From the IMG/VR virus record IMGVR_UViG_3300033075_001674, positions 32,001 through 96,000 of that record: a stretch of 64,000 bases of DNA, one strand, 5' to 3'. The stretch is from a virus (Duplodnaviria; Caudoviricetes). This document shows, piece by piece, positions 3,770 through 50,900 of the stretch. The notes beneath the pieces are model-generated. The model worked only from the letters and a program-made list of their open reading frames with translations, was not told where the DNA came from and ran no database searches. The position numbers and the translations under genes are program-made. Positions within the stretch are counted from its first letter, which is position 1, and every line of letters begins with the position of its first letter.

Positions 3770-5220
3770 TGAAGCTGGCCGACCTCCGCACCGATCCGCT
3801 GCCGCACCAGGAGCGGGTGAAGGAGCGCCTGAAGGGCGACCACCCCGGTCTTGTGGCGGTGCATGGCCTGGGGTCCGGCAAGACCCTCACGGCAATCAAC
3901 GTCCAGGACAGCCTGCGAGCCCCGGCGACTGTGGTCGTGCCCGCGGCGCTGAAGGAGAACTACCGGAAGGAGCAGAGGAAGCACCTGATCGGGGACCCCC
4001 CGCCCACGGAGCTGCAGACGATCCAGGCAGCTGCCTCGCGTAGGGGGGCCACGCCCAACGAGCTGCTGGTGGTGGATGAGGCGCACAAGCTCCGGGACCC
4101 GAACTCGGCTTCGTACCGGGCGATCCGCGACACGAAGCGAGACAAGACGCTGCTCCTGACCGCCTCCCCTTTCTACAACCACCCGCACGACCTCTCACCG
4201 CTGATCAACCTCGCGGCTCAGCAGGACCTGCTCCCCCTCGACCGGAAGAAGTTCGAGGACAAGTACATCGTCCACGAAAGGGCCCGACCGACCTTCACCC
4301 AGATGCTCCGGGGGGTGACCCCCGGAGAGATCCCCCATCTCAACCCGGCAACCGCGGGGGAGCTGCGGAAGATCTACAAGGACTGGACGGACTACCACCC
4401 CTCCTCCCAGGAGGGCTTCCCCCGGGTACGCCGGGAGGACGTGGAGGTCCTGATGTCCCCCGCGCAGAGGGACGTCTACAACACGACGCTCGACAAGGCG
4501 CCCTCCTGGGTGGCGGCCAAGGTGCGAAGCGGCATGCCTCCCTCCAAGCAGGAGATGTCGAACATGGCCGCCTTTCTGAGCGGCCCCCGGCAGGTCGGGG
4601 TCAGCACCGCTGCCTTCTCTCAGGGGGAGGTCCAGTCCCCGAAGATCGACAAGGCATTCGAGCGCATGCAGGCGCTGCTGTCGGGGAACCCCCGCGCCAA
4701 AGGGATCGTCTACTCGAACTACCTGGAGAGCGGGCTCTCCCCCTACAAGCGGAAGCTGGAGGCGGCGAAGATCCCCTTCGGGGAGTTCACCGGGGAGCTG
4801 AGCCCAAAGGAGCGGGACCAGATGGTCCGTGACTACAACGCCGGGAAGCTGCGCGCGTTGCTGCTGTCCAGCGCCGGGGGGGAAGGTCTGGACCTCAAGG
4901 GTACCCGGCTGGTCCAGATGCTTGAACCGCACTGGAACCAGGAGAAGCTCAAGCAGGTGGAGGGGCGGGCGATCCGCTACAAGAGCCACGAGGGCTTGCC
5001 CCCGGAGGAGCAGGAGGTCCTGGTCGAGCAGTACCTGTCGCACCTGGAGCCGAAAACGCGGGAGGGCCTGGCCGCCCTCCTCTTCGGCAAAGAGAGGAAG
5101 AACCGCGCCATCGGCGCGGACGAGTACCTCCACAACATGAGCCGCTCGAAAGGTCGGCTCATAGACGAGTTCCGAGCCCTGCTCCCGCAGCCACCCTTGA
5201 CGGGGCAGGCGGCTTCGTTA
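3769..5220 (+). CDS. SNF2-like superfamily 2 helicase
   Basis: HGLGSGKT, DEAH, TAS, GGEGLDL and QVEGRAIR motifs; TGATG coupling with the upstream gene. Ends at TTA 5218-5220 if TTA is stop, otherwise at TGA 5226. Confidence 0.88.
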
Positions 5221-5311
5221 CGATGAGGCACATGCACTCGTAGCTGCACGCAGCCAGAGATCCTCCGGTGTTTTTATTTCGTAGCCATCCACCTCTACGA
5301 CGGAGACACCG

Positions 5312-5611
5312 ATGAAGACTCTTCCAGAACAGATTGAGGAACACGAGACGTCGCAGCACGTCTTGAGACAGCTGGCGTTGGTACACACCGGACCTGCCCG
5401 GCACGCCTACAACATGCAGCGCCTCGCCCGCAAGGCTTCGGGGCGCGTTCTCTACCTCGCCCTCGCCCTCCTGCGAGGAGTCCCGTACAACGCGCTGGAG
5501 CGGACCTGTGCTGTGCCGCCCTCGGCCTCCGAGATTGCTCAGCTCGCCGGAGTGGGGGAGGAGGTGGCCCTTGGCTGGCTGGAACAAGCTGCGTGTCGTG
5601 ACGCTGCGTGA
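5312..5611 (+). CDS. phage hypothetical protein
   Basis: SD GGAG; segment LALALLRGVPYNALE resembles small phage proteins I recall beside Pth2-like genes (recall, not searched). Confidence 0.65.
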   Translation: MKTLPEQIEEHETSQHVLRQLALVHTGPARHAYNMQRLARKASGRVLYLALALLRGVPYNALERTCAVPPSASEIAQLAGVGEEVALGWLEQAACRDAA

Positions 5612-5969
5612 AGGGTAGGTCGGGTTCCGGGGAGCGCAGGCCATCCACGGAGTCCTGGCCTTCGCCGCAGAACACCCGAAGGAGGAGCAGGCGTGGCGCC
5701 TCTCCTCGAACACCGTCGTCTGGCTAGAGGCGGATGCCGACGAGCTGCAGCAGCTGCTCGACAGTGCCCGAGCCGCCAAAGTGAAGGTGAGCACCTTCCA
5801 CGAACCAGACCTTGCGAACCGACTGACCGTCGTGGCACTCAGCCCCTGCACTCGCGCGTTGAAGCTGACGCGAGGGGTGCCCCTGGCCGGGGTAGTTCAA
5901 GTGGCAGAACACGGGATTCTAAATCCCGACGTGAGGGTTCGAGTCCCTCCCCTGGCTCCGATGAAGTAG
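5571..5969 (+). CDS. Pth2-like peptidyl-tRNA hydrolase with in-frame TAG at 5616-5618 (readthrough candidate or pseudogene)
   Basis: SD GGAGGAGGT then TTG at 5571. Translation MAGWNKLRVVTLREG*VGFRGAQAIHG...NTVVWLE...FHEPDLANRLTVVAL...GVPLA matches the Pth2-type pattern K-x-V-V-x-R...AQxxH...EPD...T. The ORF track only calls it from 5781. Confidence 0.7.
5886..5957 (+). tRNA. tRNA with CUA anticodon (amber suppressor type), Gly-like body
   Basis: Full cloverleaf: acceptor GCCGGGG/CCCTGGC, D arm GTTC/GAAC, anticodon stem CGGGA/TCCCG with loop TT-CTA-AA (5919-5921), 4-nt variable loop, T arm GAGGG-TTCGAGT-CCCTC, discriminator T. CCA is not encoded (CCG follows). Confidence 0.92.
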
Positions 5970-5979
5970 CCTGCAGGGC

Positions 5980-8900
5980 ATGGCCGCTCAGGATATTGTC
6001 GCGTTTCTGCAAGAGCGCGTTCGGGTGTTCGACCAGACCATCGACGTGGAGGCAGGCAGCGACTTCTACCAGAAGGTTTTGCGACCCCTCGCTGGACGGA
6101 TCGGACCCGACCCCTTCACCACCGACACGCGAGCCTTCCTGTTGGAGGTCCTGGGGCGCGAGTACCCTGAGCTGGCGAGCGGCTCGCTCGACGCGTTGGC
6201 AGACGCTCTCGTCCTGCCCATCGAGTCGTTCCTGTCCCCGGTCTCGGCGGAGATCACCCGGATCGGAAGGGGTCTCTCCCTGAAGAACCCGGATCAGCTC
6301 AGCGTCGAGGAGGCGGAAGCCCTGGGAGCCAACCTCCTGGAGGAGCGCTCGGCCGGAGACTTCGCCAAGGGGGTTGTCCGGGTCTACTACCGCAACCCGC
6401 AGGGGCGCACCTTCACCAAGGCCCACGTCTTCAGCACCGAGGACCGACTCACGTTCATCCCCACCGAGGACCAGAGCATCTCGGCGGAGGAGATGCTGGT
6501 GAACCTGGACCCCGTCTCGGGCCTCTACTACGTCACCGTCTCGCTCATCGCGACAGCCCCAGGGGATCAGTACAACATCGACCCCAACTCGATCCGGAGT
6601 GTCCAGGGGTCGCAGGGCCACGAGAAGGTCACCAACCCGTACCGCTTCGTAAACGGTGTGGCGGAACAGACCGCCGAGGAGTTCGTGGACTCCCTGCCAG
6701 ATCGCGCGGGGGCCAAGGGGATGACCCAGCCCACCGGGATCGTCCGGGAGCTCAGCGACGCCTTCCCCATCACACGCATCGCGGTGGTGGGCCACGGCGA
6801 CCCTGAGATGGAGCGGGACATCGCTGAAGGGGGCTCCCTCGGGGAGACCCTGCTCTCGGGGTTCTCGGCAGCTACGACGATGGACTCCGGGGGCCTCCCC
6901 ACGACCACGCTCGTCACGCTTTCCGACGCGGAGGAGGACCTCACCACCCTCGGGAACGGATTGGTGCTCACCATCTCCCACCCGGACATCGAGGGACGCA
7001 CAAAGGACCTTGAAGTCGCACAGGCGCTGAGCAGCACGTCCCTGGAGCTGGCGGAGAGCGTGCTCTACCCGGGGATCTCCGGGGCGTACTGGACTCTCCG
7101 CCGGCGGGAGCTCGTGGTGAGCAACTCCCCGCTCCTGTCCGAGAGGTTCGCCTCGGCCCCCAACAAGGTCCACCTGGGGGGAGCGGTGGACGTTTACCTC
7201 CGGGGAGGGGAGCCCGACAGCACCTCGATGGTGATCGACGTGCTCGACGACGAGCAACCGGTCCTGGAGGGGCTGGACCTGTCAGGGTCCGGCAGCGAGG
7301 TCTACCTGCAGGACCTGGTGCTCTCCACCGACTACGTTTCGGGAGACGCGACCTACCGCTCGGTGCAGAAGATCTGGCAGGAGCGTTGGGCGCTGGAGAT
7401 CCTGGACGGGCCTGCAGCCGGTGTGTATGAGATCCTCGACGTCACCGAGGTCAGCGGCTCCCCCCTGCAGCTCACGCTTTACAGCGAGCTGCCAGCATCT
7501 GCGTCGGGGGCTCGTTGGAGGATCCTCGACGATCTCAACGTCAACCTCCGGGCCCCCAAGAAGATCCGCTACCGCGGCGGGGACATGGAGACCGTGCAGG
7601 GTCTATCGCAGGTGGCCACCTTCGGCCTCACGTCCTTCCTCGACGTCGGAGTGGAGTCGGGGGACACGCTGGAGATCCTCTCGGGGAGAGACAAGGGAAC
7701 CTACCAGGTCACGGCGCTCGCGGGCCCCGGGAGCTCCCGGTTGATCATCAACCAGCCCTTGACCTCCACGGCCTCCAGCGTCCCGTACGTCGTCTACAAA
7801 GAGAACAGCGCCTCCCCGCTGGAGCTACCGATCCTGCGGCTGACGGAGGTCTCTGTGCTGGACAGCTCCGGGCAGGCTCTCGGGGTCACGGTTCCCTACG
7901 GTCCTTGCCTTGGGGCGATCAGCCGCGGGATCACGAACCCGGCTCACGGGATCAAGCTCAGCGTACCGGATGCTCTGCTCGGAATCGTGTCGCAGCGCCT
8001 ACCTTCGGGGGCGAACGTCAGCGGTCGCACGATCTCGATCTTCTTCGAGGAGCTGGGCACCTACTACGTCACGTTCAGCGGGGGGAACCCCGTGAGCGTC
8101 GCGAACATCGTGTCGCAGATCAACGCTGCGGTGGGACGTAACGTGGCCACCAAGGTGGGGGCAGACCGTTTCGGCGTCTTCCCCGTGGGAGGCAAAGAGG
8201 CGCGCATCGTGGGACCCACCTCCTTCCTTCTCAACCCCCTGGATACCCTCTTCGGGGGCAGGTACGCCCTGAGCACCAAGAGCATCCGCAGTGCTTTCTT
8301 CACCAGCACGACCTTCGACGAGCTCAACCCCGCGCTGTCCCTCGACTACGACGTCGTGCAGTTTCAGGATGGGGCACAGGTAGGTGTGCACGGCATCGCC
8401 TCGGTCACGCGTAGGCCTGCTACGGTCCCTGTCACCGCGCTGTTCGATCCAAACGGCCTCATCTCCTCGGTGGAGGGGGGGTTCTTCCCCGAGGCGGATG
8501 TCCGACTCGACCTGGGCTCTCGCTCCATCGGCACCGTGCGCTGCTTCTTCCTGGATCCGGTGAGCGTCGAGTTCGAGTCGACTGCTCGGCTGACCCACAC
8601 CCTCGAGTCCGGCGAGACCTTGCAGTACAAGCCGGACCCCCAGTTCGAGTCCGTGGTCCTGCCCGCTGCACCTGGTGGGTCCAAGCCTCACGACGGGAAC
8701 TGCCTCGGCGGGGACAACGTGTTCAACACCTCGCTGGATCTGCGCGCCAAGGAGGTGCGCAAGGGCGACAAGCTGCGCATCGACTACATCCCTATCTACA
8801 CCTCCGCTCTCGCCGACGTAATCGTGGGGCTGGCGGGCAAGACCCTGCTCCTTTCCTACGGGGGCGAGAGCGCTCAGACCTTGACCTTCGTTCGCGACAG

Positions 8901-9903
8901 CGCAGCGGTTCCATCTACGGACGTCTCCCGAGCCGGGGCCCTCCAGCAGCTGCAGCGTTTCCTCGGCACCGCTGTTACCCTCAACCCGGACACCCGCTTC
9001 AAGATCGATCCGGAATTCCTGCTCTCCCTCAGCAAGTCGGGAACCGCGAACTCCTACCTGGGGCTCTCCACCTCGCAAGACACGTCCAACCAGTCGGCCA
9101 ACGCCGGGACGTACACGATCGACGTGCCAGGAAACCTGGGCTGCACGCTGGTGGAGACGCTCTCCGAAGCCGAAGCCGAGACCCAGTTCTCGATCCTTCG
9201 GGTGGGCAGCCAGCGCCTCGGCAGGACGGAGATGAGCCGGCAAGAGGGGGAGGGCGGGCTCTACTTCATGGACCTGGAGGTTGTGTCCGAGGGCACGGGG
9301 GACGTCTACAACCTGAGCAATCAGGAGGCTTTCTCCGTCGACTCCCACCTGCACGATGGGTACGAGCTCTCCACCGTCGACTCTAGGTACGCCATGTCGA
9401 CCGAGGAGGAGCTGTGGCTGAAGCTGCCTCGCAGGGTCATCCCGCTGGGAAGCGACAACGACCCGGAGCAGGGGGTCTACCTCCTGAACCAACAGCTGCA
9501 GGTGACCGCTGAGGCCAGCAGCGTCGTTCGTGAGGTGCAGGATTACCTCCTCACGGACTTGCACCGGGATGTCTGCGCCTCTCCGCTCGCGATGGCACTC
9601 ACTCCCCACTACGTCTGCTTTTCGCTGGGATACGTCGGGGGACCTACCCCCGACGAGATGGAGAGCGCGTTGAATCGCATGATTCATGCGTTGTTCCCCG
9701 ACGAAGCGCTATCTGCGGACGCCCTTGTTACCCGGGTGTCTCAGCTGGGGGCCGAGACGATGACCTTGCCGCTACGCCTGTTCGCGGTGGTTTCCGACCG
9801 GGATCGAAAGCTCCGCCTCCTCTCCAGCCAGGACAGGCTCTCCATCGGCAGGCAGTCCGCCTTCTACCCTTACCGGATCGCCCTCAGTCGGACTCGGGGG
9901 TGA
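5980..9903 (+). CDS. baseplate J-like wedge protein
   Basis: 1307 aa; N-terminal pattern A.GVVRVY...IATAPGDQYNI...VTNP..F.NG...Q, followed by VVGHGDPEMERD and HLGGAVDVY, typical of large-myophage baseplate J proteins. Confidence 0.75.
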   Translation: MAAQDIVAFLQERVRVFDQTIDVEAGSDFYQKVLRPLAGRIGPDPFTTDTRAFLLEVLGREYPELASGSLDALADALVLPIESFLSPVSAEITRIGRGLSLKNPDQLSVEEAEALGANLLEERSAGDFAKGVVRVYYRNPQGRTFTKAHVFSTEDRLTFIPTEDQSISAEEMLVNLDPVSGLYYVTVSLIATAPGDQYNIDPNSIRSVQGSQGHEKVTNPYRFVNGVAEQTAEEFVDSLPDRAGAKGMTQPTGIVRELSDAFPITRIAVVGHGDPEMERDIAEGGSLGETLLSGFSAATTMDSGGLPTTTLVTLSDAEEDLTTLGNGLVLTISHPDIEGRTKDLEVAQALSSTSLELAESVLYPGISGAYWTLRRRELVVSNSPLLSERFASAPNKVHLGGAVDVYLRGGEPDSTSMVIDVLDDEQPVLEGLDLSGSGSEVYLQDLVLSTDYVSGDATYRSVQKIWQERWALEILDGPAAGVYEILDVTEVSGSPLQLTLYSELPASASGARWRILDDLNVNLRAPKKIRYRGGDMETVQGLSQVATFGLTSFLDVGVESGDTLEILSGRDKGTYQVTALAGPGSSRLIINQPLTSTASSVPYVVYKENSASPLELPILRLTEVSVLDSSGQALGVTVPYGPCLGAISRGITNPAHGIKLSVPDALLGIVSQRLPSGANVSGRTISIFFEELGTYYVTFSGGNPVSVANIVSQINAAVGRNVATKVGADRFGVFPVGGKEARIVGPTSFLLNPLDTLFGGRYALSTKSIRSAFFTSTTFDELNPALSLDYDVVQFQDGAQVGVHGIASVTRRPATVPVTALFDPNGLISSVEGGFFPEADVRLDLGSRSIGTVRCFFLDPVSVEFESTARLTHTLESGETLQYKPDPQFESVVLPAAPGGSKPHDGNCLGGDNVFNTSLDLRAKEVRKGDKLRIDYIPIYTSALADVIVGLAGKTLLLSYGGESAQTLTFVRDSAAVPSTDVSRAGALQQLQRFLGTAVTLNPDTRFKIDPEFLLSLSKSGTANSYLGLSTSQDTSNQSANAGTYTIDVPGNLGCTLVETLSEAEAETQFSILRVGSQRLGRTEMSRQEGEGGLYFMDLEVVSEGTGDVYNLSNQEAFSVDSHLHDGYELSTVDSRYAMSTEEELWLKLPRRVIPLGSDNDPEQGVYLLNQQLQVTAEASSVVREVQDYLLTDLHRDVCASPLAMALTPHYVCFSLGYVGGPTPDEMESALNRMIHALFPDEALSADALVTRVSQLGAETMTLPLRLFAVVSDRDRKLRLLSSQDRLSIGRQSAFYPYRIALSRTRG

Positions 9904-24768: not shown

Positions 24769-25281
24769 TTACTTGGCTTCGTACCAGGACTGGGCGAGCG
24801 TGGGCTCAGCCTTGAGCTTCACTCGCATCTTGTGGTTGAGCTTGCGGAACGGATCCTCCATGCAGCACTTGAGCATGCGCATGGCCTCCTCCTTGGTGTC
24901 CTCGGGCCCCTCGGTTATGAGCTCGTCGTGAATCTGGGCGAGCACGTTCCATCCGAGGCGCGTATCGAACCCGTTGTCGTAGAGCTGGATCATGGCCATC
25001 TTCGCGCACTCCGCGGCCGACCCCTGGATCTGGAAGTTGGCTGCCTGCCTCCCAGCCCTCCAGCGCTCGAACTCGTTCGGGCTGCGGGCCTCGGGCAATG
25101 ACCGCCTCCGACCCAGGATGGTCAGCACGTAGAGGTGCTTGTTCAGGAACTCTTGCGTCTCGGAGAAGAAACGCTCGACCGCCGGGTAGGTGTCCATGTA
25201 CTTGCGCATGAGCGCCTCGGCCTCCGTGAGGGAGATGCCGAGGGTGAGGGCCAGCTTCCTCACCTGCATTCCGTAGTTCAG
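24769..25281 (-). CDS. polA: DNA polymerase family A, exon 2
   Basis: LNYGM...TILGRRR...AANFQIQGSAA...QIHDEL (end of motif B and motif C). Confidence 0.92.
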   Translation of the reverse strand: MNYGMQVRKLALTLGISLTEAEALMRKYMDTYPAVERFFSETQEFLNKHLYVLTILGRRRSLPEARSPNEFERWRAGRQAANFQIQGSAAECAKMAMIQLYDNGFDTRLGWNVLAQIHDELITEGPEDTKEEAMRMLKCCMEDPFRKLNHKMRVKLKAEPTLAQSWYEAK

Positions 25282-26013
25282 CGTAGGACTCCCCTGTTTC
25301 CAGGGGTACTGACTATGCCTTCGTGGCCCCGCACCCCTTGCACCGAAGCTGCCTGGCTCCGGTTGGGGTGAACACACCGCCGCAAGAAGAACAAGAACGA
25401 TTCCGAAACACGACCCGAGCCGGCAGATTGCTGGCGCAGCCGTGCAGAAGCTGGTGGCATCGTTTACACATGGGCTGGAGGTTGGCAGGGTCGTTGTTGG
25501 ACCTGTCCTCGTCCCTGTGGTGCACGAGCACCGCTCGCTCTCCGCACCCACACGTTGTGCCGTGGGCGCGGAAGCACAGCTCTCGGTAGTACGCGGGAGA
25601 GCGCCCCCCTGACCAGACAGGGTTCTTCTCTCCTCGCTGATCCCGAGACCGCTTCGGTACGTTCTTCTCTCTCCACTCTTGCTGGAGCTTTTGAGCGCGT
25701 GACTTCCGGCATACGGGACACCTCGGACAGTTCGCCCCCGTGGGAGTGAACGCCGACCCGCAGCCGCACCGTTTCGGTTCGTACACTTTCCGTTGAAGCA
25801 TACCCCGGTGTAGCGCTTTGACGGGACAACGCCCCCCGTATCAAGGATGCCGTGGGCATGACTAGCCTCGCACCTGCGTGTGCGCATCCTTGAGGGCCGG
25901 TGCCGGCCCAAGTCGATACGCTCCTCGGTGGGGAGGAGCACGGTGTTGCCGTGGGCTTTCGCCGTTAGGGTTCGCCGTTTTGAGGGGGTTTTAGTACGGC
26001 CCAACATTCGTCA
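25282..26013 (-). mobile_element. group I intron (IA2-like) in DNA polymerase motif B
   Basis: Exon end GTACGGT pairs with intron GCCGTAC (U.G at the 5' splice site). P4 AAACGGCGAA/AACACCGTG, P6 GCTCCTC/GAGGAGC, P7 GACT/AGTC, extra P7.1 and P7.2 hairpins, P9 CCCCTG-GAAA-CAGGGG, terminal G. Splicing restores KTIAYG|LNYG. Confidence 0.92.
25313..25801 (-). CDS. intron-encoded HNH homing endonuclease
   Basis: VHHRDEDRSNNDPANLQPMCKRCHQLLH, GEKNPVWSGG and two zinc-finger repeats; lies in the P8 loop, with its TAG stop inside J8/7-P7. Confidence 0.85.
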   Translation of the reverse strand: MLQRKVYEPKRCGCGSAFTPTGANCPRCPVCRKSRAQKLQQEWREKNVPKRSRDQRGEKNPVWSGGRSPAYYRELCFRAHGTTCGCGERAVLVHHRDEDRSNNDPANLQPMCKRCHQLLHGCASNLPARVVFRNRSCSSCGGVFTPTGARQLRCKGCGATKA

Positions 26014-27468
26014 ACCGTACGCGATCGTCTTCACAGCTTGCCGTTGGCGGAGTGCTTCGATCGCCCAGGCGTCCAAGTGCGTGAGCTTGCCGGATTTGAG
26101 GTCCTTCTCCAGGGCCTTGGCCTCTTTGAGCTTCTCGTAAGGGGTGCCAAACACGAAGCTCGCGTTCCCCATGTGAGCGTCCAGCCCCTGCTCGAAGATG
26201 CGCAACATCTTCTCGTCGCCACTGGCCTCCGCCAGAAGCATCATCTCCAGCGCGGTGTAGTCGGCTACACCCAGGCAGTACCCTTTCATGTTCGCCACGA
26301 TGGCGCGTCGAATGCCGAAGACGTCGTGATCCGGGTGCACGATGTTTTGTGCGTTGGGGTTCTTCGACGACAGGCGACCCGTCACCGCCTCGTTCTGGTT
26401 GTAGGATGGGTGGATGCGCCCGTAGTTGTCCGCAGCGGCGAGCGCCTTGAGGAAGGTGCCTTTGAGGTTGTGCAAGTGCTTGGCCTCGACGATGAGCTTT
26501 GCTGCAGGGTCTCCGGTCTCCAGGGCCAGCTCTTCCAGCACGCCTTTCTCCGTGGATGGCTTCTGGACCCCAGTCTTGCCGCCGCTCGTCCATTTGCGGA
26601 TCGTGTACCCCCTCTCTTCGTAGAGGTAGTGGGCGATCTGCTCGCTTGCGTGGGGGCTGATGGGCCGCCCCACCGCCTGAGTCAGCCGCCGGATGACCGT
26701 CTCCTCTTCCTTCGTGATCTCGTTGTGGAGACGCTCCACCTCCTTCTGGTCCACCCCCAGACCGAGGCGCTCGTTGATCCAGAGGACCCGGGTGAAGGGG
26801 GCCTCGGTGAGATCGAAGTAGTCCCAGAGGTTCCGGATCTTGTCCTGCACCACGCTCCAGGTGGGCGTCGCCTCCATGCGCTTGCGCAGCTCCTTGTAGA
26901 GCATCAGCGTCCCATAGGCGTCGTTGCAGATGTACTCCAGGAGGCGGTTGAGGTCGGTCTTCTCGGCCGCTCGCAGGCGAGCAGCGATGGTGTCGTTCGG
27001 GTCGCGCGAGTTGGTCTTACCGAAGGTCTCCTCGAAGCCTGCCCAGGTCCAACCGAAGATCTGGTAGTGGATGTCCTTCAGCTTGTGGCTCATGTCCTCG
27101 TACAGCAGAGCGTGTTGCACGGCGATGTCGTTGATCACCCCACGCAGCTGCACCCCGCTGTTGGCGAGCATGTGGAGGTCGAACTTTGCGTTCGCCAGAA
27201 GCCAGCGCCGATCCGGGGATGAACGCATCAGCCGGGTGTACCTTGCGAGCAGGTCAGACCGAAGACCCATCCTTCGGATGCCGCTGTCGGTCTCAGCGGC
27301 GAGGGACCAGTAGACCACGTAGTCCTTCATGTTGTGGAGGCCGGTGGTCTCGGTATCGATGGCGATCTCCTTGCATCGACTCAGGATGTTGCCCAGCTCC
27401 GTGAGGGCGCGCTCGGAAGAGTCGCCGGTGTACCACTCCGCTGCCGGCATGTTCACGTGAATAGCCAT
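26014..27468 (-). CDS. polA: DNA polymerase family A, exon 1 (3'-5' exonuclease and polymerase N-part)
   Basis: DTETTG, NAKFD, YICND exonuclease motifs; TGRLSSKNPNAQN; ADYTALE (motif A); RQAVKTIAYG. SD AGGAG before ATG 27468. Confidence 0.93.
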
Positions 27469-27478
27469 GCTTGCTCCT

Positions 27479-27530
27479 AAAAAGAAGCCCATCCCCAGAC
27501 ACCCGTGAAGGCATGTCTGGGGATGGGCTT
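27479..27530 (-). terminator. intrinsic terminator between SSB and polymerase genes
   Basis: 17-bp perfect inverted repeat (27485-27501 / 27514-27530) followed by CTTTTT on the minus strand. Confidence 0.75.
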
Positions 27531-43512: not shown

Positions 43513-44115
43513 CTACTGCTGCCTGTGACAGGAGCAGTGGCACGTGGGGTTGTTGTTGCGCCAGCACTTGCTGTGGCAGCACAGCGAGCACTCCCCGTTC
43601 TCATCGATGCGCATGTCCGGAAGGGAGGGGGTGTCGGGATCGTTTGTGAGCTGAGTCTCCATCTCTGCGATGCAGCAGAGGCACGCGACTCCATGCAGCT
43701 CCTCGCCGGGGACCTCGGACAACATCACCTCCCCGTTGGGGGCCATGTCCCCTGAGACGGAGGCGATGCGGTAGCAGGCCTCTCCCAGCAGAACCTCTGC
43801 TCCGCAGAACTCGCACAGGCCGATGGAGGAGTCAGCGAGCTCTTTACGCTCTGACAAGTTCCAGACACGCGCGTCCTCCACCCGCACAGGGTTCACGTCG
43901 ACGGCCTGCTCGACGAGCACGTCGTACACGTCCTCCATGTGGGTATCGCACAGCAGGAGCTGCGGAACGTGGTACTCCCCTAGCAGCTCAAGCCCGTCGG
44001 GGACGATGAGGGGCGGGGTGTCGGGGAGGAGACGCACCCGCTGAACCAGGTGCATCGTGTGGCGCAGCGTCCCGCACAGGGAGCAGCTAAGCGAGCCGTT
44101 TCTCGAATGGTCCAT
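43513..44115 (-). CDS. Cys-rich hypothetical protein
   Basis: Several CxxC pairs; ends at a TAG that is in frame with the downstream ATPase. Confidence 0.65.
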   Translation of the reverse strand: MDHSRNGSLSCSLCGTLRHTMHLVQRVRLLPDTPPLIVPDGLELLGEYHVPQLLLCDTHMEDVYDVLVEQAVDVNPVRVEDARVWNLSERKELADSSIGLCEFCGAEVLLGEACYRIASVSGDMAPNGEVMLSEVPGEELHGVACLCCIAEMETQLTNDPDTPSLPDMRIDENGECSLCCHSKCWRNNNPTCHCSCHRQQ

Positions 44116-44901: not shown

Positions 44902-47900
44902 ATGGCAACGCTCGATCCCCACGAAGACTTCCAGGAAACGCTCAAGGCGGTCACCAGCGGTCTGCAGGAGGCGTTCCCCATCAAGGGTCGAACCTCCTCG
45001 CTACACCTCGTAAGCGTGCACGCAGGGCAGATGCCCGACCCGGAAGACATCGGTTCGCAGTACGCAACCCGGGTTGCGGGCAAGAGCTGGATGACCCCAA
45101 TCCAGGGTGTCATCGAGCTCCGAGACAACGAGACCGGTAAGGTCTTGATGACCCAGAAGACGCGCCTGATGTCGATCCCGTCTATGACCAAGCGCTTCTC
45201 CTTCATCTACAACGGCCAGGAGCACCAGTCCGCCAACCAGTGGCAGCTCAAGCCGGGGGTCTTCGCTCGTCGCCAGGACAACGGGGAGCTGGAGGCGCGG
45301 TTCAACGTGGTCAACCGTGCGGCCTTCAAGATGAAGTTGGACCCGCAGAGCCAGCTGTTCCACGTCGAGTACAAGAAGGCGAACCTGCCCGCGTACCCGC
45401 TTCTGCGGGCGATGGGGGTCTCTGACCAGCAGATGGAAGAGTCCTGGGGCAAGCAGGTCTTCGAGGCCAACAAGAAGGTCAAGCGGCAGGCCGGAGTGCT
45501 CGCGCAGTTCTACCGCACCAGCACCAACGGGAAAGCCCCCCCGGAGAGCGAGGAGGACCTGGCGGCACACCTGCGCCAGGTGATGAAGGAGTCGAAGGTG
45601 CGCCCCGAGGTGGTCAAGCAGACCCTGGCCCACGAGGTAGACCACGTGGACCACACGCTCATGCTGAACGCCGGCACGAAGCTGCTCGCCGTGCAGAACG
45701 GCGCCCCCGAGGATGACCGTGACTCGCTGATCTACAAGACGCTGCGCTCCACCGGGGACTTCCTGAAAGACCAGATCCAGGCCTCCAGCCGCAACCTGGC
45801 CATGAAGGTGCAGCGCCAGCTGAACAAGGGCGACCTCAAGGACATCCGCCACGCCTTCAAGCCAGGGCTCTACGACGACGCGGTTCGCAGGCTTTTCCAG
45901 AGCTCCCTGGTCAACCCCGCGAAGCAGATCAACCCGGTCGACATGATCGGGACGGCCATGCAGACGACCATCATGGGGCCCGGAGGAATCAAGAGCGACA
46001 TCCAGGTCACCGACGCGGCCAAGGAGATCAACCCCAGCCAGTTCGGCATGATCGACCCCCTCACCACCCCGGAGGGAGGGGCCACCGGCATCTCGCTGCG
46101 TCTACCCATCGGGGTGAAGCGGATCGGCGACCAGCCCCACATCCCCGTCTACAGCATCAAGCAGAAGAAGACGATCTACGTGAACCCCGCCCAGATGATG
46201 GCGGCCAAGAAGGTGTTCGCCGACGAGGTGGAGTACCGCAACGGGGTCCCCCACCCCCTGCGAGAGAAGGTGAAGGCGCTCGGCAAGGGCAACGAGCCCG
46301 AGGTCATCTCGTTCCACGAAGCGGACTACGTGATGAAGGACCCCAGCCAGGTCTACGGCACGACGGTCAACCTCGTCCCCTTCCTGCAGAACAACTCGGG
46401 TGGTCGTGTGTCGATGGCCAGCCGGCACATCGAGCAGAGCATCTCCCTGCGGGACAGGGACAAGCCCTTGGTGCGGGTGAACGCGCCCGGAGGAACACAC
46501 ACCTTCGAGGAGATGATCGGCCACCAGAGCGCCCACACCGCCCCAGTGGACGGAAGGGTCACCAGGGTCACTGCGGACGCGATCCACGTGGCGGATGCCT
46601 CCGGCAAGGAGCACAAGGTCCACCTCTACAACAACTATCCCGTCAACGACGCCAAGAGCGTCTTGCACTCCACCCCGCTTGTGAAGGTGGGAGATGCCGT
46701 CAAGAAGGGCGGCGTGGTGGCGGACAACAACTACACCCGAGATGGTGTGCTCGCGCTCGGTAAGAACCTCCGCACGGCATTCATGAGCTACCACGGCCTG
46801 AACTTCGAGGACGGTATCGTCATCACGGAGTCTGCGGCCAAGAAGCTGACCAGCAACCACCTCCACAAGGAGATGCTCCCTATCCCGGAGGTGAACAACC
46901 AGCTGATCTTCGACGCCAAGAAGTTTCAGGCTGCCCACCCGCTGGCGTTCTCCAAGGACCAGCTGGGGCACATCGGCGCGGATGGCGTCGCGAAGGTGGG
47001 GGCCAAGATCCGCCCCGGTGACCCGCTGGTGCTGGCGATGCAGCCGTACCAGCTCAAGGATCGAACCGGCATCGGAGCAATCCGCAAGAGCCTCACGAAC
47101 CAGCTGGTCGACAAGAGCCTGCGCTGGGAGTCGGATGTGCCGGGGGAAGTTGTATCTGTCCACCGGAACGATCAGGGCATCCACGTCCACGTGCGCACCG
47201 AGGAGCCTGTGCGCGTAGGCGACAAGCTCTCCCACCGCCACGGCGGCAAGGGCATCATCACCAGCATCCTCCCGGACAAGGACGCCCCTCGCAGCAAGGA
47301 CGGGAAGCCCGTGGACATCCTGTTCCAGCCGGGCGGTCTCGGCGGGCGCATGAATATCGGGCAGGTCCTCGAAGCACAGGCCGGGAAGATCGCCGAGAAG
47401 ACCGGCAAGCCGTACTTCGTCAAGAACTTCGACCCGAAGGTCCAGGATTGGACCCGTCACATGATGGGAGAGCTCAAGAAGCACGGGCTCTCGGACACCG
47501 AGGAGCTGTTCGACCCCAAGACCGGCATCTCCTACGGGCAGGTGATGACGGGCCCCATCCACTTCCTGAAGCTCGTCCACCAGATGGACAAGAAGGAGTC
47601 GATGCGGAGCGGCATGTCTCTGCCCAGGGTACAGAGCAAGGAGAAGTACGACCCCACGACCCTGCAGCCCGCCAGCGGCGGCGGGACCGGAGGGCAGTCC
47701 TGGGGGCAGCTCGGCATCTACGCTCTGCTGGCGCACGGGGCCAAGGGGATCCTGCGCGAGAGTATGACCTACAAGAGCGAGGGTGAGGACCCGGAGACCA
47801 ACGAGGCCAAGCGGTGGAGGTCCCAGCACAACGAGGTCTGGAACGCCATCCAGTCGGGGCAGCCCCTCCCTCCCCCGAAGCCCACCTTCTCGTTCCACCG

Positions 47901-50900
47901 CTTCACCGAGCTCATCAAGGGCGCGGGCATCAACGTGGACAAGAAGGGGGACGAGTTCGTGCTGTCCCCTCTCACCAACAGCCACATCCTCAAGATGAGC
48001 AAGGGGGAGATCTCCGACCCCACGGCCGTGGTGCACTCCAAGCGCGACGAGAACGGGGTCTTCAAGACCATCAAGGGCGGGCTCTTCGACGACAAGATCA
48101 CCGGAGGACACGGCGGCACTGGCTGGTCCCACGTGAAGCTGCCGGAGCCCATGCCCAACCCGATCTTCGAGGAGCCCATCAAGAAGATCCTCGGCATCAC
48201 GGAGACCACCTACCAGGCCCTGGTGGAGGGCAAGCAGGGGGTCAACCCGCTGACAGGGAAGATCGGCCCCTACGAGCGCGGGTTCCTCGTAGGGGGCTCG
48301 GCGTTCAAGAAGCTCCTCGGGAAGATCGACGTCTCAAAGGAGCTGGCCGCCACGAAGAAGGCCCTCGACTCGGCCAAGCCCTCCCAGGTCAACCCGCTCT
48401 ACAAGAAAGCCCGGTACCTCCAGGGGCTGGAGAAGACAGGGATGCGCCCCGACGAGGCGTACGTGCTCGACTACCTGCCCATCGTGCCCCCCAAGCTCCG
48501 CCCTCTGTCCAACCTGGACGACGGAGCGCTGCACTACGACGGTATCAACGGCATGTACAACCAGCTGGGGCAGCTCACGAACGCGATGAACCACCCATCG
48601 CAGAAGATGCTCCCCGATCAGTACAAGGCCGAGGGGCGCAGGGCTCTCTACGACGGGGTGTCCGCTCTCTTCGGTACAGCTGCTCTACCCGAGGGAGCCA
48701 AGGACAAGGGCATCCTCCACATGATCGCCGGCAGCCAGCCGAAGCGCGGTATCGCCCAGAAGGGCCTACTCTCCCGCAGGCAGGATGCCTCGGCCCGCGC
48801 CACGATCATCCCTGAGCCGAAGCTCGGGCTCGACGAGATCGGGCTACCCAAGGAGATGGCCATGACCATCCTCCGCCCACAGCTCGTGCGTCAGCTTGTG
48901 GTGCAGGGGAGCGCCAAGGATGAGCTGGCAGCGCAGAACCTCCTGGCGGAGGCCCACAAGGGCAAGGAGGACCCCTCCATCCAGTCCGCCCTCAACAACC
49001 TGGCGAACAACGAGCTCGTCATCTCGAAGCGTGACCCTGCGCTGTGGAAGTACAGCGTGCAGGCGTTTCGTCCGCGCATCGTTGAGGGTAAGGCGATCCG
49101 GATTCACCCGCTTGTGACCGGGGGATTCAATGCCGACTTCGACGGCGACAGCGCCAAAGGGCTGGTGCATGTTGAAGTTTCTACGGAAACCGGGAACAAG
49201 GAGGAGATGCCACACCTCGGATCCCTTCCTGTTCATGGGCTCATCAACCTTCGTGACTTTCCCCGCCAGCAACTCCTTCGGGATGACGGGCGCGTAGCGG
49301 TTTACAGCGTGCCGGAGGGGGTGGTGGTGCCCTCCCACCTCAACGGGGTCGGCATCGTGCGGATGCCAGTCACCGAGTTTTCCATCCACCGTGACTGCCC
49401 TCTCTGGAGGGTGACCAGCCGTGCGGGCCGGTTGCTGGAGGTAAGCGAAGACCACTCCCTGGCCACCCTCGACATGAACACCCTGGACGTCGTGGAGACC
49501 AAGGCGTCGGGAAGCGAGGGCAAGGTCTTCCCTGTCATGCGCGCCCTCGCCCACTCTCACGGCAAGGACGCGTGGGACACCTCCTGCTTCGAGGGTGTCT
49601 CGGAGAGGGGCTACCCTCTTCCCCAGTTCCCTCTCACCAAAGCATCCGGTTGGTTCCTGGGGGCGATGGTTGGGGATGGGTGGGTGAGCGACACATCCAA
49701 GTACACAAACGGCACAGCCATGCAGATCAGTTTGGCTTACGGGGCGAGGGGGGTTGAGGTAGCAGCCCGGTGGGGGTCCTTCCTGGATAACCTCGTCCCC
49801 GAGATTGCCAAACGATCCTACCGAAACGAGCACGAGTTCGAGGGGAAGCCCGCTCTCTCCTTCCGCGACACTGTGACCCACTCCGCTCTCGGGCGTCTCC
49901 TCCAGGAGCAGCTCGGGCACGGGGCCCGGAACAAGCACCTGCCCCTCGACTTCCTGGAGTGGAACGAGCAGGCACGTCGGGGCCTGCTCGCTGGTCTGCT
50001 GGACACGGATGGCTCGGTGACCTGGGTGCACGCGGCGACCAAGAACAAGCCTCAGTTCCAGGCCGCCTACCACACCACCTCCGCACAGCTCGCCATCGAG
50101 GTCGTATTGCTCTGCCAGTCCCTTGGCATCGTCGCCAGCTACACCGAGTACGCGAAGCGGGACGGGCTCGCCTACAACATCTTCCTGTCCACCTCCACGA
50201 TGCAGGAGGCCACCTGGCTGGACCTGGCCCATCCGGAAAAGAAGGAGGCCCTGGAGCGGCTCTGGGGGAGCGAGCCTGTGATCTCGGGCAGGGGGGACTG
50301 GGTGCCCATGCCCCCGGCTGTCCGGAGCATTCTGCTCACGGAGCTCCGCAAGAAGGGGGCTGCCCGCAAGGAGAAGACCGAGGAGGGCAAGCGCGCTTTC
50401 AGCCTCTACGTGGTACTGAAGAAAGAGGAGCCCATCATCACGCGGGAGACCTTTGCCCTGCTCACCGAGATGCTCGGGGATGCGGTGTGCAGCGAAGGGC
50501 TGATGTCCTCGTGGTACGCGCTCTGCACCAACCCCACGCTCTCCTGGGATGTGGTGGAGACGGCGGAGGACACGGGGGAGCTCCACGAGATGTACGACCT
50601 CACCGTTCCGGACTCCTACACCTTCACGATGGCCAATGGCGCCGTGGTCTGGGACACCATGAGTGTGCAAGCCGTGCTCTCCGACGAGGCAAAGCGCGAC
50701 GCGGCTCGCATGCTCCCCAGCAAGAACATCTTCAGCGAGAGCACCGGAGGGGTGGCCTACCTGCCCTCGATGGAGTCTCTCCTGGGACTCCACCGTCTGT
50801 CCCTTGTCGGGCAGTCGAAGGGCGCCTCTTTTAGCCACGACAAGGACGCCATCGCGGCCCTGCACCAGAAGAAGGTGAGCCTCGATGAGCAGATCAAGGT

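What the first reader, a model, noticed from the sequence alone, without database searches (positions are those of the whole stretch)
5886..5957. Amber suppressor-type tRNA (CUA) with a Gly-like body
Seen: an intact cloverleaf with anticodon CTA, U73, G1-C72/C2-G71 and a 4-nt variable loop. It resembles bacterial tRNA-Gly and lacks the tRNA-Pyl architecture. TAG is rare as a stop here (5969, 25313, 43513) compared with dozens of TGA. Large genes are not broken by TAG, so this is not a full table-15 recoding. Established: TAG-recoded phages generally insert Gln. Inference: partial or regulatory amber suppression, or an early stage of swapping UAG for UUA in the stop set.
Basis: partly seen in the sequence, partly recalled or inferred. 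Interest (0 to 1): 0.8.

Follow-up and report, generated by a model that had tools for sequence, protein, structure and literature searches.

The report
Phage amber-suppressor tRNA sensing cassette
An uncultured high-GC phage carries a real, conserved tRNA that reads the UAG stop codon, set in a small operon whose leader peptide and Pth2-type hydrolase gene themselves contain UAG. It therefore looks like a self-monitoring, partial stop-codon override, not a new genetic code or a glycine-type tRNA.

Summary
The tRNA is real: ARAGORN places it at 5886-5959, Rfam scores it 64.2 bits, and the anticodon CUA lies at 5919-5921. It is the only tRNA on the 108-kb contig, which is about 59% complete.

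Three related phages keep it at the same spot with an invariant UUCUAAA loop. Eleven of its 21 stem pairs show compensatory changes, so it is under selection as a tRNA.

"Gly-like" is not supported. U73 is unique to this genome (the orthologues have G73), and the nearest bacterial bodies are Trp, Gly, Thr and Lys about equally.

TAG is not recoded. It ends about five credible genes, and one of these stops was confirmed through homologue lengths. I found no TAG inside large genes.

The tRNA's likely clients lie in its own cassette:
- A leader ORF conserved in all four phages: a start codon, UAG within four codons, then a RAPP-type arrest motif (RDPP, RAPP or RGPP).
- In this genome only, TAG at codon 16 of the adjacent Pth2-fold gene, whose frame runs into the tRNA.

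Pth2-like genes sit beside stop-reading tRNAs (CUA, UUA or UCA) in eight of twelve lineages sampled, including cluster C mycobacteriophages.

This scan has reported the same "suppressor-gated Pth2" cassette many times on other DNA. I found no published description. The function is inferred, and nothing here is experimental.

The parts
5886..5959 (+). tRNA with anticodon CUA (5919-5921). Positions 1-73 are 5886-5957, with U73 at 5957; CC follows at 5958-5959 and no A76 is encoded.
   Evidence: ARAGORN; Rfam tRNA 64.2 bits; orthologues with the same anticodon loop and 11/21 covarying pairs.
5571..5969 (+). Pth2-fold gene. The domain spans 5571-5888, with an in-frame TAG at 5616-5618 (codon 16). 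There is no stop before the tRNA, so the frame runs through it to TAG 5967-5969.
   Evidence: Translation; Pfam PTH2 E = 6e-4, 20.4 bits, below the cut-off of 23; alignment with orthologues, where the TAG column holds A/S/P; profile hit to PDB Pth2 1wn2, E = 5.6e-5; AlphaFold model with pLDDT 96.2 matching Pth2 structures at TM 0.78-0.83, with strand beta1 (residues 7-12) lying before the TAG.
5232..5315 (+). Leader ORF: ATG, two codons, TAG (5241-5243), then five codons on an RDPP motif, later a TTA. It ends at a TGA that overlaps the ATG (5312) of the next gene.
   Evidence: Sequence and translation. The same layout (start, early TAG, R-[A/G/D]-P-P) is present in L004, L005 and L007, with different Arg codons.
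5197..5224 (+). Promoter-like site TTGACG-16-TACGAT just upstream of the leader.
   Evidence: Consensus scan: 1 found against 0.1 expected. Similar TTGAC[AG]-17-TAnnnT elements precede the leaders of L004, L005 and L007 (read by eye).
5312..5611 (+). Conserved 99-aa ORF of unknown function between the leader and the Pth2-like gene. It overlaps the Pth2-like start.
   Evidence: ORF list; homologous ORFs of about 100 aa at the same place in L004, L005 and L007; only a faint HHH hit in Pfam.
5980..9903 (+). Baseplate_J-like 1307-aa gene immediately downstream. It served as the synteny anchor for finding relatives.
   Evidence: Homologues of 72-28% identity, some carrying PF04865; loci L004-L010.
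43513..43515 (-). Example of a TAG that is a genuine terminator. It is followed by GAGG, then ATG, of the next gene in the same frame.
   Evidence: Sequence. The read-through fusion searched against 1.84 billion proteins found only separate ~200-aa and ~400-aa homologues.

Best explanation
This is a functional, phage-encoded amber-suppressor tRNA that works at a partial level inside an otherwise ordinary use of TAG as a stop. It is the last element of a small cassette that is probably one transcript. The order is: promoter-like site, short leader ORF, 99-aa ORF, Pth2-fold gene, tRNA.

Shown: the tRNA, its anticodon loop and its position are conserved. The leader in all four related phages has UAG within its first four codons, followed in the same frame by a conserved RAPP-type ribosome-arrest motif. 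In this genome the Pth2-like gene also needs UAG read-through at codon 16, because the essential first beta strand lies upstream of the TAG.

Inferred: ribosomes reach the arrest motif only when the tRNA out-competes RF1. The leader would therefore report suppressor activity and tune translation of the downstream genes. In this genome the Pth2-like protein would be made only when the tRNA is active.

The Pth2-like protein most likely deals with peptidyl-tRNA or acylated tRNA produced by, or belonging to, the suppression process. A host synthetase charges the tRNA with an unknown residue. G73 in the orthologues, U35 and a single-base distance from CCA, CUG and CUU anticodons make Gln, Trp or Lys more likely than Gly.
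For: - tRNA quality.
- Orthologous tRNAs with an invariant UUCUAAA loop in L004, L005 and L007, whose neighbouring protein is 72, 61 and 48% identical. 94% of stem cells pair and 11/21 pairs change on both sides; 0/500 shuffles reach this.
- Leader ORFs: MHS-UAG-LHAA-RDPP in the window, MR-UAG-LIKNP-RAPP in L004, VL-UAG-LLPRS-RDPP in L005, and V-UAG-LRFSFPPP-RGPP in L007. The Arg codons are AGA, CGA, CGT and CGC, so the frame after the UAG is conserved at the peptide level.
- RAPP and RGPP are robust arrest motifs. RDPP is partially permissive and is strongly avoided in proteomes (PMC12992588, PMC10951233).
- In the Pth2-like gene, the TAG column aligns with A/S/P and the N-terminal segment is conserved. 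The fold is confirmed, with beta1 upstream of the TAG, and there is no in-frame start after the TAG until 5781.
- TAG is otherwise a stop. It is about half as frequent as composition predicts: 5 of 84 standard stops against 13.8% off-frame.
- A stop-reading tRNA is the nearest tRNA to a Pth2-like gene, within about 1 kb, in 8 of 12 lineages sampled. These include the cultured phages Cane17 and Phabba.
Against: - There are no expression, charging or read-through data.
- The Pth2-like TAG is present only in this genome, not in L004, L005 or L007. It could be a tolerated nonsense mutation or an assembly error.
- L005 also has an ATG-initiated leader frame without a TAG.
- RDPP, the motif in this genome, is a weaker arrest motif than RAPP or RGPP.
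- The promoter is only a consensus match.
- At least five genes still end in TAG, so strong suppression should be costly.
- In Cane17 the TAG just before the annotated GTG start may be incidental, because the RBS spacing fits the GTG.
- The phages with UUA or UCA tRNAs (L011, L021, L015) show no cognate stop inside their Pth2-like genes.
- The catalytic Lys of canonical Pth2 is not conserved in this family.
- The contig is about 59% complete.
Confidence: 0.6

Rival explanations
1. The tRNA is a general-purpose suppressor with no dedicated client. It could serve host takeover by read-through of host TAG-ended genes, or buffer nonsense mutations in the phage. The TAGs in the leader and the Pth2-like gene would then be incidental, and the Pth2-like gene would sit next to it only because Pth2 genes lie among phage tRNA genes.
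For: - Suppressor tRNAs without identifiable targets are reported in the standard-code jumbo phages XacN1 and Atu_ph07 (PMC5852040, PMC6102473).
- PTH2-like genes are known inside cluster C tRNA arrays (PMC5966550).
- The Pth2-like TAG is not conserved in the orthologues.
Against: - The leader keeps an early UAG plus an in-frame RxPP in 4 of 4 orthologous cassettes, with synonymous Arg changes.
- Where several tRNAs are present, it is the suppressor that sits nearest the Pth2-like gene.
- In this contig the suppressor is the only tRNA.
Confidence: 0.17
2. The tRNA marks a genetic-code transition. UAG would be on its way out as a stop and towards a sense meaning, while UUA takes over as a terminator.
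For: - 24 of 26 in-frame TTAs that follow coding sequence have no coding potential downstream. The other two precede a same-frame gene.
- 20 of 105 genes end at TTA, and doing so gives tidy gene junctions.
- TAG stops are about two-fold depleted.
- The leaders of the window and of L004 contain both a UAG and a UUA.
Against: - TAG is still a verified terminator, and sense TAGs are confined to the cassette.
- TTA-ended genes occur in L006, which lacks the cassette at this locus.
- The same Pth2-like/suppressor pairing occurs in cluster C mycobacteriophages. I did not examine TTA use in those phages.
- No mechanism links a CUA anticodon to UUA.
Confidence: 0.1
3. The tRNA and the Pth2-like protein together form a release-factor-independent termination or rescue device. 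The tRNA would decode the stop codon and the hydrolase would free the peptide from it. This would explain why CUA, UUA and UCA tRNAs all pair with this protein.
For: - The association holds across all three stop anticodons.
- The Pth2 fold is confirmed.
- The ORF is physically fused to the tRNA gene in the window, L004 and L005.
Against: - Pth enzymes act on free peptidyl-tRNA, not on ribosome-bound peptidyl-tRNA (established knowledge).
- The window's own Pth2-like gene and the leaders need read-through, not termination, at UAG.
- The catalytic Lys is not conserved.
Confidence: 0.06
4. The phage has fully recoded TAG to an amino acid (table 15 type).
For: A CUA tRNA is present and TAG stops are scarce.
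Against: - There are no in-frame TAGs in large or conserved genes of this genome or of L004-L007.
- Coding density is normal under table 11.
- One TAG is a verified terminator.
Confidence: 0.02
5. The tRNA is a decayed or non-functional tRNA-like remnant.
For: No full CCA is encoded. U73 differs from the orthologues. The tRNA overlaps an ORF.
Against: The covariance score is high. The anticodon loop is conserved and compensatory stem changes span four genomes.
Confidence: 0.03

Closest known systems
Suppressor tRNAs of standard-code jumbo phages: Xanthomonas phage XacN1 (two CUA tRNAs), Agrobacterium phage Atu_ph07 (UCA), Klebsiella phage phiKp24 (UUA)
   Same: A phage-encoded tRNA reads a stop codon in a genome that still uses that codon as a terminator. 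Those phages also encode peptidyl-tRNA hydrolases (PMC5852040, PMC6102473, PMC8386662).
   Different: In those reports no client genes were found and no link to the hydrolase was drawn. Here the tRNA is the only tRNA on the contig, abuts the hydrolase-like gene, and has candidate clients in its own cassette.
Cluster C mycobacteriophages (Bixzunavirus Cane17, Myrnavirus Phabba): 'peptidyl tRNA hydrolase' followed by 'tRNA-OTHER'
   Same: The Pth2-like subfamily is the same: tblastn with relatives P0045 and P0070 gives 32-38% identity. The first tRNA downstream reads UAG, 250 nt away in Cane17 and about 130 nt away in Phabba.
   Different: There the pair sits at the head of a large tRNA array. 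A TAG lies just before the annotated GTG start, but whether it is part of the ORF is ambiguous. I did not look for an RxPP leader there.
TAG-recoded (code 15) phages: crAss-like, Lak and others (Borges et al., bioRxiv 10.1101/2021.08.26.457843)
   Same: A phage-encoded CUA tRNA, with stop-codon read-through proposed as a regulatory device.
   Different: Those phages are low-GC gut phages with many in-frame TAGs in late genes, read as Gln. This phage is 65% GC, TAG remains a stop, and in-frame TAGs are confined to the cassette.
RAPP-type arrest-peptide leaders (ApdA, ApdP, ApcA, SecM; PMC7897499, PMC10951233, PMC12992588)
   Same: A short upstream ORF carrying R-A/G/D-P-P sits just before the gene it could regulate.
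   Different: Known examples sense protein export and have no stop codon in front of the motif. Here access to the motif is gated by an early UAG, so the sensed quantity would be suppressor-tRNA activity.
prfB (RF2) autoregulation through an in-frame UGA
   Same: An in-frame stop codon inside a translation-factor gene makes the gene's output depend on how that stop is being decoded.
   Different: prfB uses a +1 frameshift and senses release-factor level. Here it would be read-through by a dedicated tRNA.

Membership tests
Functional amber-suppressor tRNA | Canonical cloverleaf scoring above the tRNA covariance-model threshold | tested here: met
   Rfam RF00005 64.2 bits against 29; ARAGORN cloverleaf.
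Functional amber-suppressor tRNA | 7-nt anticodon loop with U33, C34-U35-A36 and a purine at position 37 | tested here: met
   The loop UUCUAAA at 5917-5923 is identical in L004, L005 and L007. ARAGORN offers an alternative 8-nt loop for L007.
Functional amber-suppressor tRNA | Evolutionary conservation with compensatory stem changes | tested here: met
   11 of 21 pairs change on both sides and 94% of cells are paired; 0/500 shuffles reach this.
Functional amber-suppressor tRNA | Genes that require UAG read-through | tested here: met
   Pth2-like codon 16; leader ORFs with a UAG followed by an in-frame conserved RxPP in 4 of 4 genomes.
Functional amber-suppressor tRNA | Demonstrated aminoacylation and suppression | not testable with these tools
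   Needs a reporter assay, tRNA-seq and mass spectrometry.
TAG-recoded phage (NCBI table 15 type) | Numerous in-frame TAGs in conserved or large genes | tested here: not met
   None in this contig or in the homologous genes of L004-L007.
TAG-recoded phage (NCBI table 15 type) | TAG no longer terminates genes | tested here: not met
   About 5 credible TAG-ended genes. The one at 43513 was verified by homologue lengths.
tRNA-Pyl | Pyl architecture: 6-bp anticodon stem, 3-nt variable loop, small D-loop without G18-G19 | tested here: not met
   The tRNA has a 5-bp stem, a 4-nt variable region, a D-loop AAGTGGCA containing GG, and a standard T-loop. ARAGORN's 'Pyl' label is only its name for a cta anticodon.
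tRNA-Pyl | Accompanying pylS and pylBCD genes | not tested
   Only about 20 proteins were scanned with Pfam, and none was Pyl-related.
tRNA-Gly-derived body | U73 with G1-C72, C2-G71 and G3-C70 | tested here: not met
   The window has U73, G1-C72 and C2-G71 but C3-G70. The orthologues have G73.
tRNA-Gly-derived body | Nearest cellular tRNAs are tRNA-Gly | tested here: inconclusive
   Among 120 bacterial tRNAs sharing the D-arm and T-loop: Asn 30, Gly(CCC) 23, Trp 22, Thr 14, Lys 14, Gly(UCC) 7. Best identities are Trp 56/72 and Gly, Thr and Lys 55/72.
Pth2 peptidyl-tRNA hydrolase (PF01981), for the neighbouring gene | Pfam match above the gathering score | tested here: not met
   The window protein scores 20.4 bits against 23. 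Most of the 59 relatives carry a precomputed PF01981 hit.
Pth2 peptidyl-tRNA hydrolase (PF01981), for the neighbouring gene | Pth2 fold | tested here: met
   Model pLDDT 96.2. Foldseek top hits are 2zv3, 1q7s, 1wn2, 3erj and 1xty at TM 0.78-0.83. Profile against PDB: E = 5.6e-5.
Pth2 peptidyl-tRNA hydrolase (PF01981), for the neighbouring gene | Catalytic residues (the Lys of GKGK and the Asp of DAG-T in archaeal Pth2; recalled from the literature) | tested here: inconclusive
   The Lys column is variable. An acidic residue (E78) and D80 are near-invariant in the motif F-[HR]-E-P-D.
Suppressor-tRNA-gated Pth2-like cassette (this scan's earlier category) | Pth2-like gene within about 1 kb of a stop-reading tRNA | tested here: met
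   The gap is 0 nt here. The same holds in 8 of 12 lineages sampled.
Suppressor-tRNA-gated Pth2-like cassette (this scan's earlier category) | Early in-frame cognate stop in the Pth2-like gene and/or its leader | tested here: met
   - Met in the window: Pth2-like codon 16 and leader codon 4.
- Leader only in L004, L005 and L007.
- Clear in LR756500 (ATG-AAG-TAG).
- Ambiguous in L012, Cane17 and Phabba.
- Absent from the Pth2-like genes of the UUA and UCA carriers.

The most novel reading that the evidence does not exclude
The cassette is an autoregulated sensor of amber suppression. A UAG placed in front of a RAPP-type arrest motif would let the ribosome measure how well the phage's own tRNA(CUA) competes with RF1, and the result would set the output of a Pth2-type hydrolase (and perhaps of the tRNA transcript itself). 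In this phage the circuit would operate alongside UUA used as a fourth terminator, so the virus would be actively managing a non-standard set of stop signals.
Probability: 0.3. Interest if true: 0.8.

Novelty: new variant of a known kind. Interest (0 to 1): 0.6.

Why it matters
Suppressor tRNAs in phages that keep the standard code have been noted for years without any identified target or purpose. Here the candidate targets are visible in the sequence. One is a conserved leader in which UAG guards a ribosome-arrest motif. The other is a Pth2-type gene that cannot be made without read-through.

That turns "why do standard-code phages carry suppressor tRNAs?" into an experiment that can be run with a reporter and a cloned 0.8-kb cassette. 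The same gene pair exists in cultured cluster C mycobacteriophages, so genetics in Mycobacterium smegmatis is possible.

The cassette would also be a natural, compact part for controlling amber suppression in high-GC hosts. It may bear on how stop-codon reassignment begins.

Tried and rejected
- **Cultured-phage searches.** Megablast of 4000-9000, tblastn of the 1307-aa neighbour and blastn of the tRNA against 50,697 phage records gave no relatives. The only tRNA hits were weak ones to tRNA-Met, Asn, Trp and His.
- **IMG/VR scans.** Scans with the neighbour protein, an exact tRNA pattern and the Pth2-like alignment found nothing.
- **Metagenome scan.** It gave one extra locus, L011.
- **Genome-contig scan with the alignment.** It found nothing.
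- **The genome search 'relatives' and 'handles'.** These are not available for this virus record or for the Logan, ENA and JGI loci.
- **Release-factor domain PF00472 in the contig.** No hit. The same first-look search also missed the weak PTH2 match, so this negative is uninformative.
- **Read-through fusion at TAG 43513.** Rejected, because all homologues are separate proteins.
- **Same-frame junctions at genome 29023 and 31405.** Each is followed by its own start codon; the second also has a GGAGGG ribosome-binding site. A TTA lies 11 codons before the first. I treat them as ordinary gene boundaries.
- **Identity of the inserted amino acid.** It cannot be inferred. The only alignable TAG column holds A, S or P.
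- **Script machine.** It was lost, so later ORF checks were done with the translate tool, and no exact binomial values were computed.
Full report
**1. The object**

ARAGORN reports a single tRNA in the window, at 5886-5959 on the + strand, with anticodon cta. It is also the only tRNA in the whole 108,475-bp contig. Rfam's tRNA model scores it 64.2 bits against a gathering score of 29, with E = 1.8e-13.

Read directly from the sequence and from ARAGORN's drawing, its features are:
- Acceptor stem G1-C72, C2-G71, C3-G70, G4-U69, then three G-C pairs.
- Discriminator U at 5957, followed by C-C-G, so the CCA is not fully encoded.
- A D-loop containing GG, a 4-nt variable region and the T-loop TTCGAGT.
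- A 5-bp anticodon stem closing the loop UUCUAAA.

It has none of the peculiarities of tRNA-Pyl. ARAGORN's "Pyl" label is only its name for a cta anticodon.

The contig is an IMG/VR virus record of 65% G+C. CheckV puts it at about 59% complete, so "only tRNA" holds for the part that is held.

**2. Conservation**

The contig has no close relatives among cultured phages. The 1307-aa Baseplate_J-like protein just downstream has metagenomic homologues, and I fetched their contigs.

In the three relatives that share the local gene order, a tRNA sits at the same place. These are L004, L005 and L007, with neighbour-protein identities of 72, 61 and 48%. All carry the identical anticodon loop UUCUAAA.

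On the four-sequence alignment, 94% of stem cells form standard pairs and 11 of 21 pairs show changes on both sides. None of 500 shuffles and no slid register comes close. The tRNA is therefore under selection as a tRNA, and CUA is its ancestral anticodon in this clade.

L006 (55% identity) has neither the tRNA nor the preceding gene at this locus. Three more distant relatives (L008-L010) have no tRNA nearby.

**3. Identity of the body**

The evidence against it:
- U73 is unique to this genome. L004 (which encodes G73-CCA), L005 and L007 all have G73.
- Position 3-70 is C-G here, not G-C.
- The anticodon lacks the C35 and C36 that GlyRS relies on (established knowledge).

A pattern scan of 185,579 species genomes for the shared D-arm and T-loop returned 120 tRNAs. 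They were Asn 30, Gly(CCC) 23, Trp 22, Thr 14, Lys(CUU) 14, Gly(UCC) 7 and a few others. The most similar were two tRNA-Trp(CCA) at 56/72 identities, then Gly, Thr and Lys at 55/72.

The body is thus generic. UUCUAAA is one base from the Trp loop UUCCAAA and one from the Lys loop UUCUUAA. The residue carried cannot be read from the sequence.

**4. Is TAG recoded? No.**

I trained a codon-potential model on 25 long ORFs and looked at every in-frame stop-like codon that follows coding sequence. Only 3 of 24 TAGs have coding potential downstream, and all three lie at gene junctions.

A gene model built the same way gives 105 genes ending in TGA 70, TTA 20, TAA 9 and TAG 6. One of the six TAG cases is the frame that runs through the tRNA. 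tblastn of all these genes against L004-L007 shows no in-frame TAG in the homologues.

Two same-frame TAG junctions caught my eye. At 43513 (- strand) the TAG is followed by GAGG and an ATG. I read the two ORFs through as one 606-aa protein and searched 1.84 billion representative proteins. Every homologue covers only the ~200-aa part or only the ~400-aa part, and none is fused. That TAG is a genuine terminator. The junctions at genome 29023 and 31405 are each followed by their own start codon (the second also by a GGAGGG site), and the first is preceded by a TTA.

TAG is somewhat scarce. It accounts for 5 of 84 standard stops, against 13.8% of off-frame stop triplets. That is roughly two standard deviations below expectation.

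**5. The neighbourhood: a Pth2-fold gene fused to the tRNA**

The frame 5571-5969 translates to a 106-residue domain ending in GVPLA exactly at the first codon of the tRNA. It has a TAG at codon 16 (5616-5618), and there is no stop until the TAG at 5967-5969 beyond the tRNA.

The evidence that it is a Pth2-family protein:
- Pfam gives PTH2 at E = 6e-4, below the curated cut-off.
- The orthologues align over the full length.
- A profile of them finds 59 relatives, most carrying PF01981, and hits solved Pth2 structures (1wn2, E = 5.6e-5).
- An AlphaFold model has pLDDT 96.2 and pTM 0.89. It superposes on the Pth2 structures 2zv3, 1q7s, 1wn2, 3erj and 1xty at TM 0.78-0.83.

The first beta strand (residues 7-12) lies upstream of the TAG, and the next in-frame start codon is at 5781. 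The protein therefore cannot be made without reading the UAG. The TAG column holds Ala, Ser and Pro in the orthologues, so this TAG is specific to this genome.

In the window, L004 and L005 the ORF has no stop before the tRNA. It ends at different stops inside or after the tRNA. L007 has a TGA 25 nt before the tRNA.

**6. A conserved leader with UAG in front of an arrest motif**

The cassette begins after a promoter-like TTGACG-16-TACGAT at 5197-5224. Next comes a short ORF at 5232-5315. It reads ATG, two codons, TAG, then five codons later R-D-P-P, later a TTA, and finally a TGA overlapping the ATG of the 99-aa gene.

The three orthologous cassettes have the same construction behind similar TTGAC[AG]-17-TAnnnT elements:
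- L004: MR-UAG-LIKNP-RAPP, ending in a TGA that overlaps the next GTG start.
- L005: VL-UAG-LLPRS-RDPP.
- L007: V-UAG-LRFSFPPP-RGPP, ending at a TAA before the next gene's ribosome-binding site.

The Arg codon is AGA, CGA, CGT or CGC, so the frame downstream of the UAG is conserved at the peptide level. That only makes sense if the UAG is read through.

RAPP and RGPP are the strongest known members of the RAPP-like class of ribosome-arrest motifs. RDPP is "partially permissive" and is among the most avoided tetrapeptides in bacterial proteomes (PMC12992588, PMC10951233).

This conserved leader, not the Pth2-like TAG, is the best evidence that the tRNA has a dedicated regulatory client. One caveat applies: L005 also offers an ATG-initiated frame without a TAG.

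**7. The pairing elsewhere**

I looked at the nearest tRNA to Pth2-like genes of this subfamily in other lineages. The subfamily motifs are KLY-VTR-DL, SNTVV, F-[HR]-E-P-D and GLPLA.

| Lineage | Nearest tRNA |
|---|---|
| L011 | UUA, 87 nt downstream |
| L012-14 | CUA, about 300 nt downstream |
| L015-17 | UCA, about 820 nt downstream, opposite strand |
| LR756500 | CUA, about 800 nt away |
| LR745208 | UUA, about 100 nt away |
| Mycobacterium phage Cane17 | CUA, 250 nt downstream, first of a 20-tRNA array, annotated "tRNA-OTHER" |
| Phabba | CUA, about 130 nt downstream |
| L018 | an odd tRNA with a 9-nt loop |
| L019, LR745206, LR756504 | none nearby |

Counting this clade, that makes 8 of 12 lineages. 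This is far more than the rarity of suppressor tRNAs would allow by chance, although shared ancestry of the pair cannot be excluded.

Early cognate stops inside the Pth2-like ORF are less consistent:
- Clear in the window and in LR756500, which reads ATG-AAG-TAG with no other canonical start.
- Ambiguous in L012, Cane17 and Phabba. In Cane17 the RBS spacing fits the annotated GTG just after the TAG.
- Absent in L004, L005 and L007, and in the UUA and UCA carriers.

**8. Earlier notes of this scan**

A word search shows that this scan has reported "suppressor-tRNA-gated Pth2-like" cassettes many times on other DNA. A later internal check priced the bold reading at about 20/100. These are unchecked AI notes.

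They changed my reading of the window's codon-16 TAG from "tolerated nonsense mutation" to "possibly part of a recurrent design", and they prompted the tests in sections 6 and 7. My own tests support the leader part strongly for this clade and the Pth2-gating part only partly.

**9. Literature**

I found reports of suppressor tRNAs without known targets in standard-code phages (PMC5852040, PMC6102473, PMC8386662). PTH2 is recorded in jumbo phages and in cluster C tRNA arrays (PMC7824862, PMC5966550). Stop-codon recoding with suppressor tRNAs is described in bioRxiv 10.1101/2021.08.26.457843, which does not mention hydrolases.

I found no description of the pairing or of a UAG-gated arrest leader. 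The library is limited to open-access papers.

**10. TTA**

I can confirm independently that TTA behaves like a terminator here:
- 24 of 26 in-frame TTAs after coding sequence have no coding potential downstream. The other two precede a same-frame gene.
- Using TTA as a stop gives tight gene junctions.
- Relatives L004, L006 and L007 show the same pattern.

By raw count alone TTA is not anomalous: 5 occurrences in 19,585 training codons, against about 9 expected from the CTA/CTG ratio. I see no mechanistic link between a CUA anticodon and UUA. L006 has TTA-ended genes without the cassette at this locus.

**11. Verdict**

The interpretation "partial or regulatory amber suppression" is the best-supported reading, and it now has concrete candidate clients. 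"Gly-like" is not supported, and the "UAG for UUA swap" is not shown. Function remains inferred.

Noticed in passing
whole contig; e.g. window 5218, 16889, 35191, 59118: TTA lies at the end of coding potential in about 20 of 105 genes and never inside one. Relatives L004, L006 and L007 show the same. This is another finding of the scan; I re-tested it only with my own codon-potential model.
   Followed up: partly
window 24769-27492 (-): The DNA polymerase A gene is split. The exonuclease plus the first half of the polymerase domain lie at 26011-27492. The second half lies at 24769-26007 in the same frame after a TGA. About 240 residues are inserted, and an HNH-endonuclease-like ORF (25313-25801, ending in TAG) sits in another frame. 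This suggests a mobile-element or intron-type insertion.
   Followed up: no
genome 29044-31407 (L002 14044-16407): A 787-aa protein has a C-terminal InPase domain. Its residues ~300-390 match pieces of other genes (HNH_3-containing) in L006 and L007, suggesting an intein or homing-endonuclease insertion.
   Followed up: no
window 5886-5969; L004 3719-3745; L005 980-1015: The Pth2-like ORF has no stop codon before the tRNA. It ends at a TAG after the tRNA in the window, at a TAG inside the tRNA in L004, and at the TAA formed by the anticodon loop in L005. RNase P cleavage of the tRNA would leave a stop-less Pth2 message.
   Followed up: partly
L004 3719-3792, L005 980-1052, L007 9908-9980: Three of the four orthologous tRNAs have a mismatched 27-43 pair, giving an effectively 4-bp anticodon stem. 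ARAGORN alternatively reads L007 with an 8-nt loop and anticodon 'ctaa'. A 2026 NAR paper (PMC13092985) links 4-bp anticodon stems to stop-codon reading.
   Followed up: no
L012 8437-8513; L018 9472-9546: Other odd tRNAs lie near Pth2-like genes. One has an 8-nt loop ('ttaa'). The other has a 9-nt anticodon loop and is called Tyr(ata) by ARAGORN.
   Followed up: no
L011 3536-3608 and L015 11146-11221 (-): The ochre (UUA) and opal (UCA) tRNAs next to Pth2-like genes in two unrelated contigs share the acceptor stem GCUCCU..., A73 and G37. They look like one tRNA lineage with different stop anticodons.
   Followed up: no
window 44902-53955: A 3017-aa ORF. I did not examine it.
   Followed up: no
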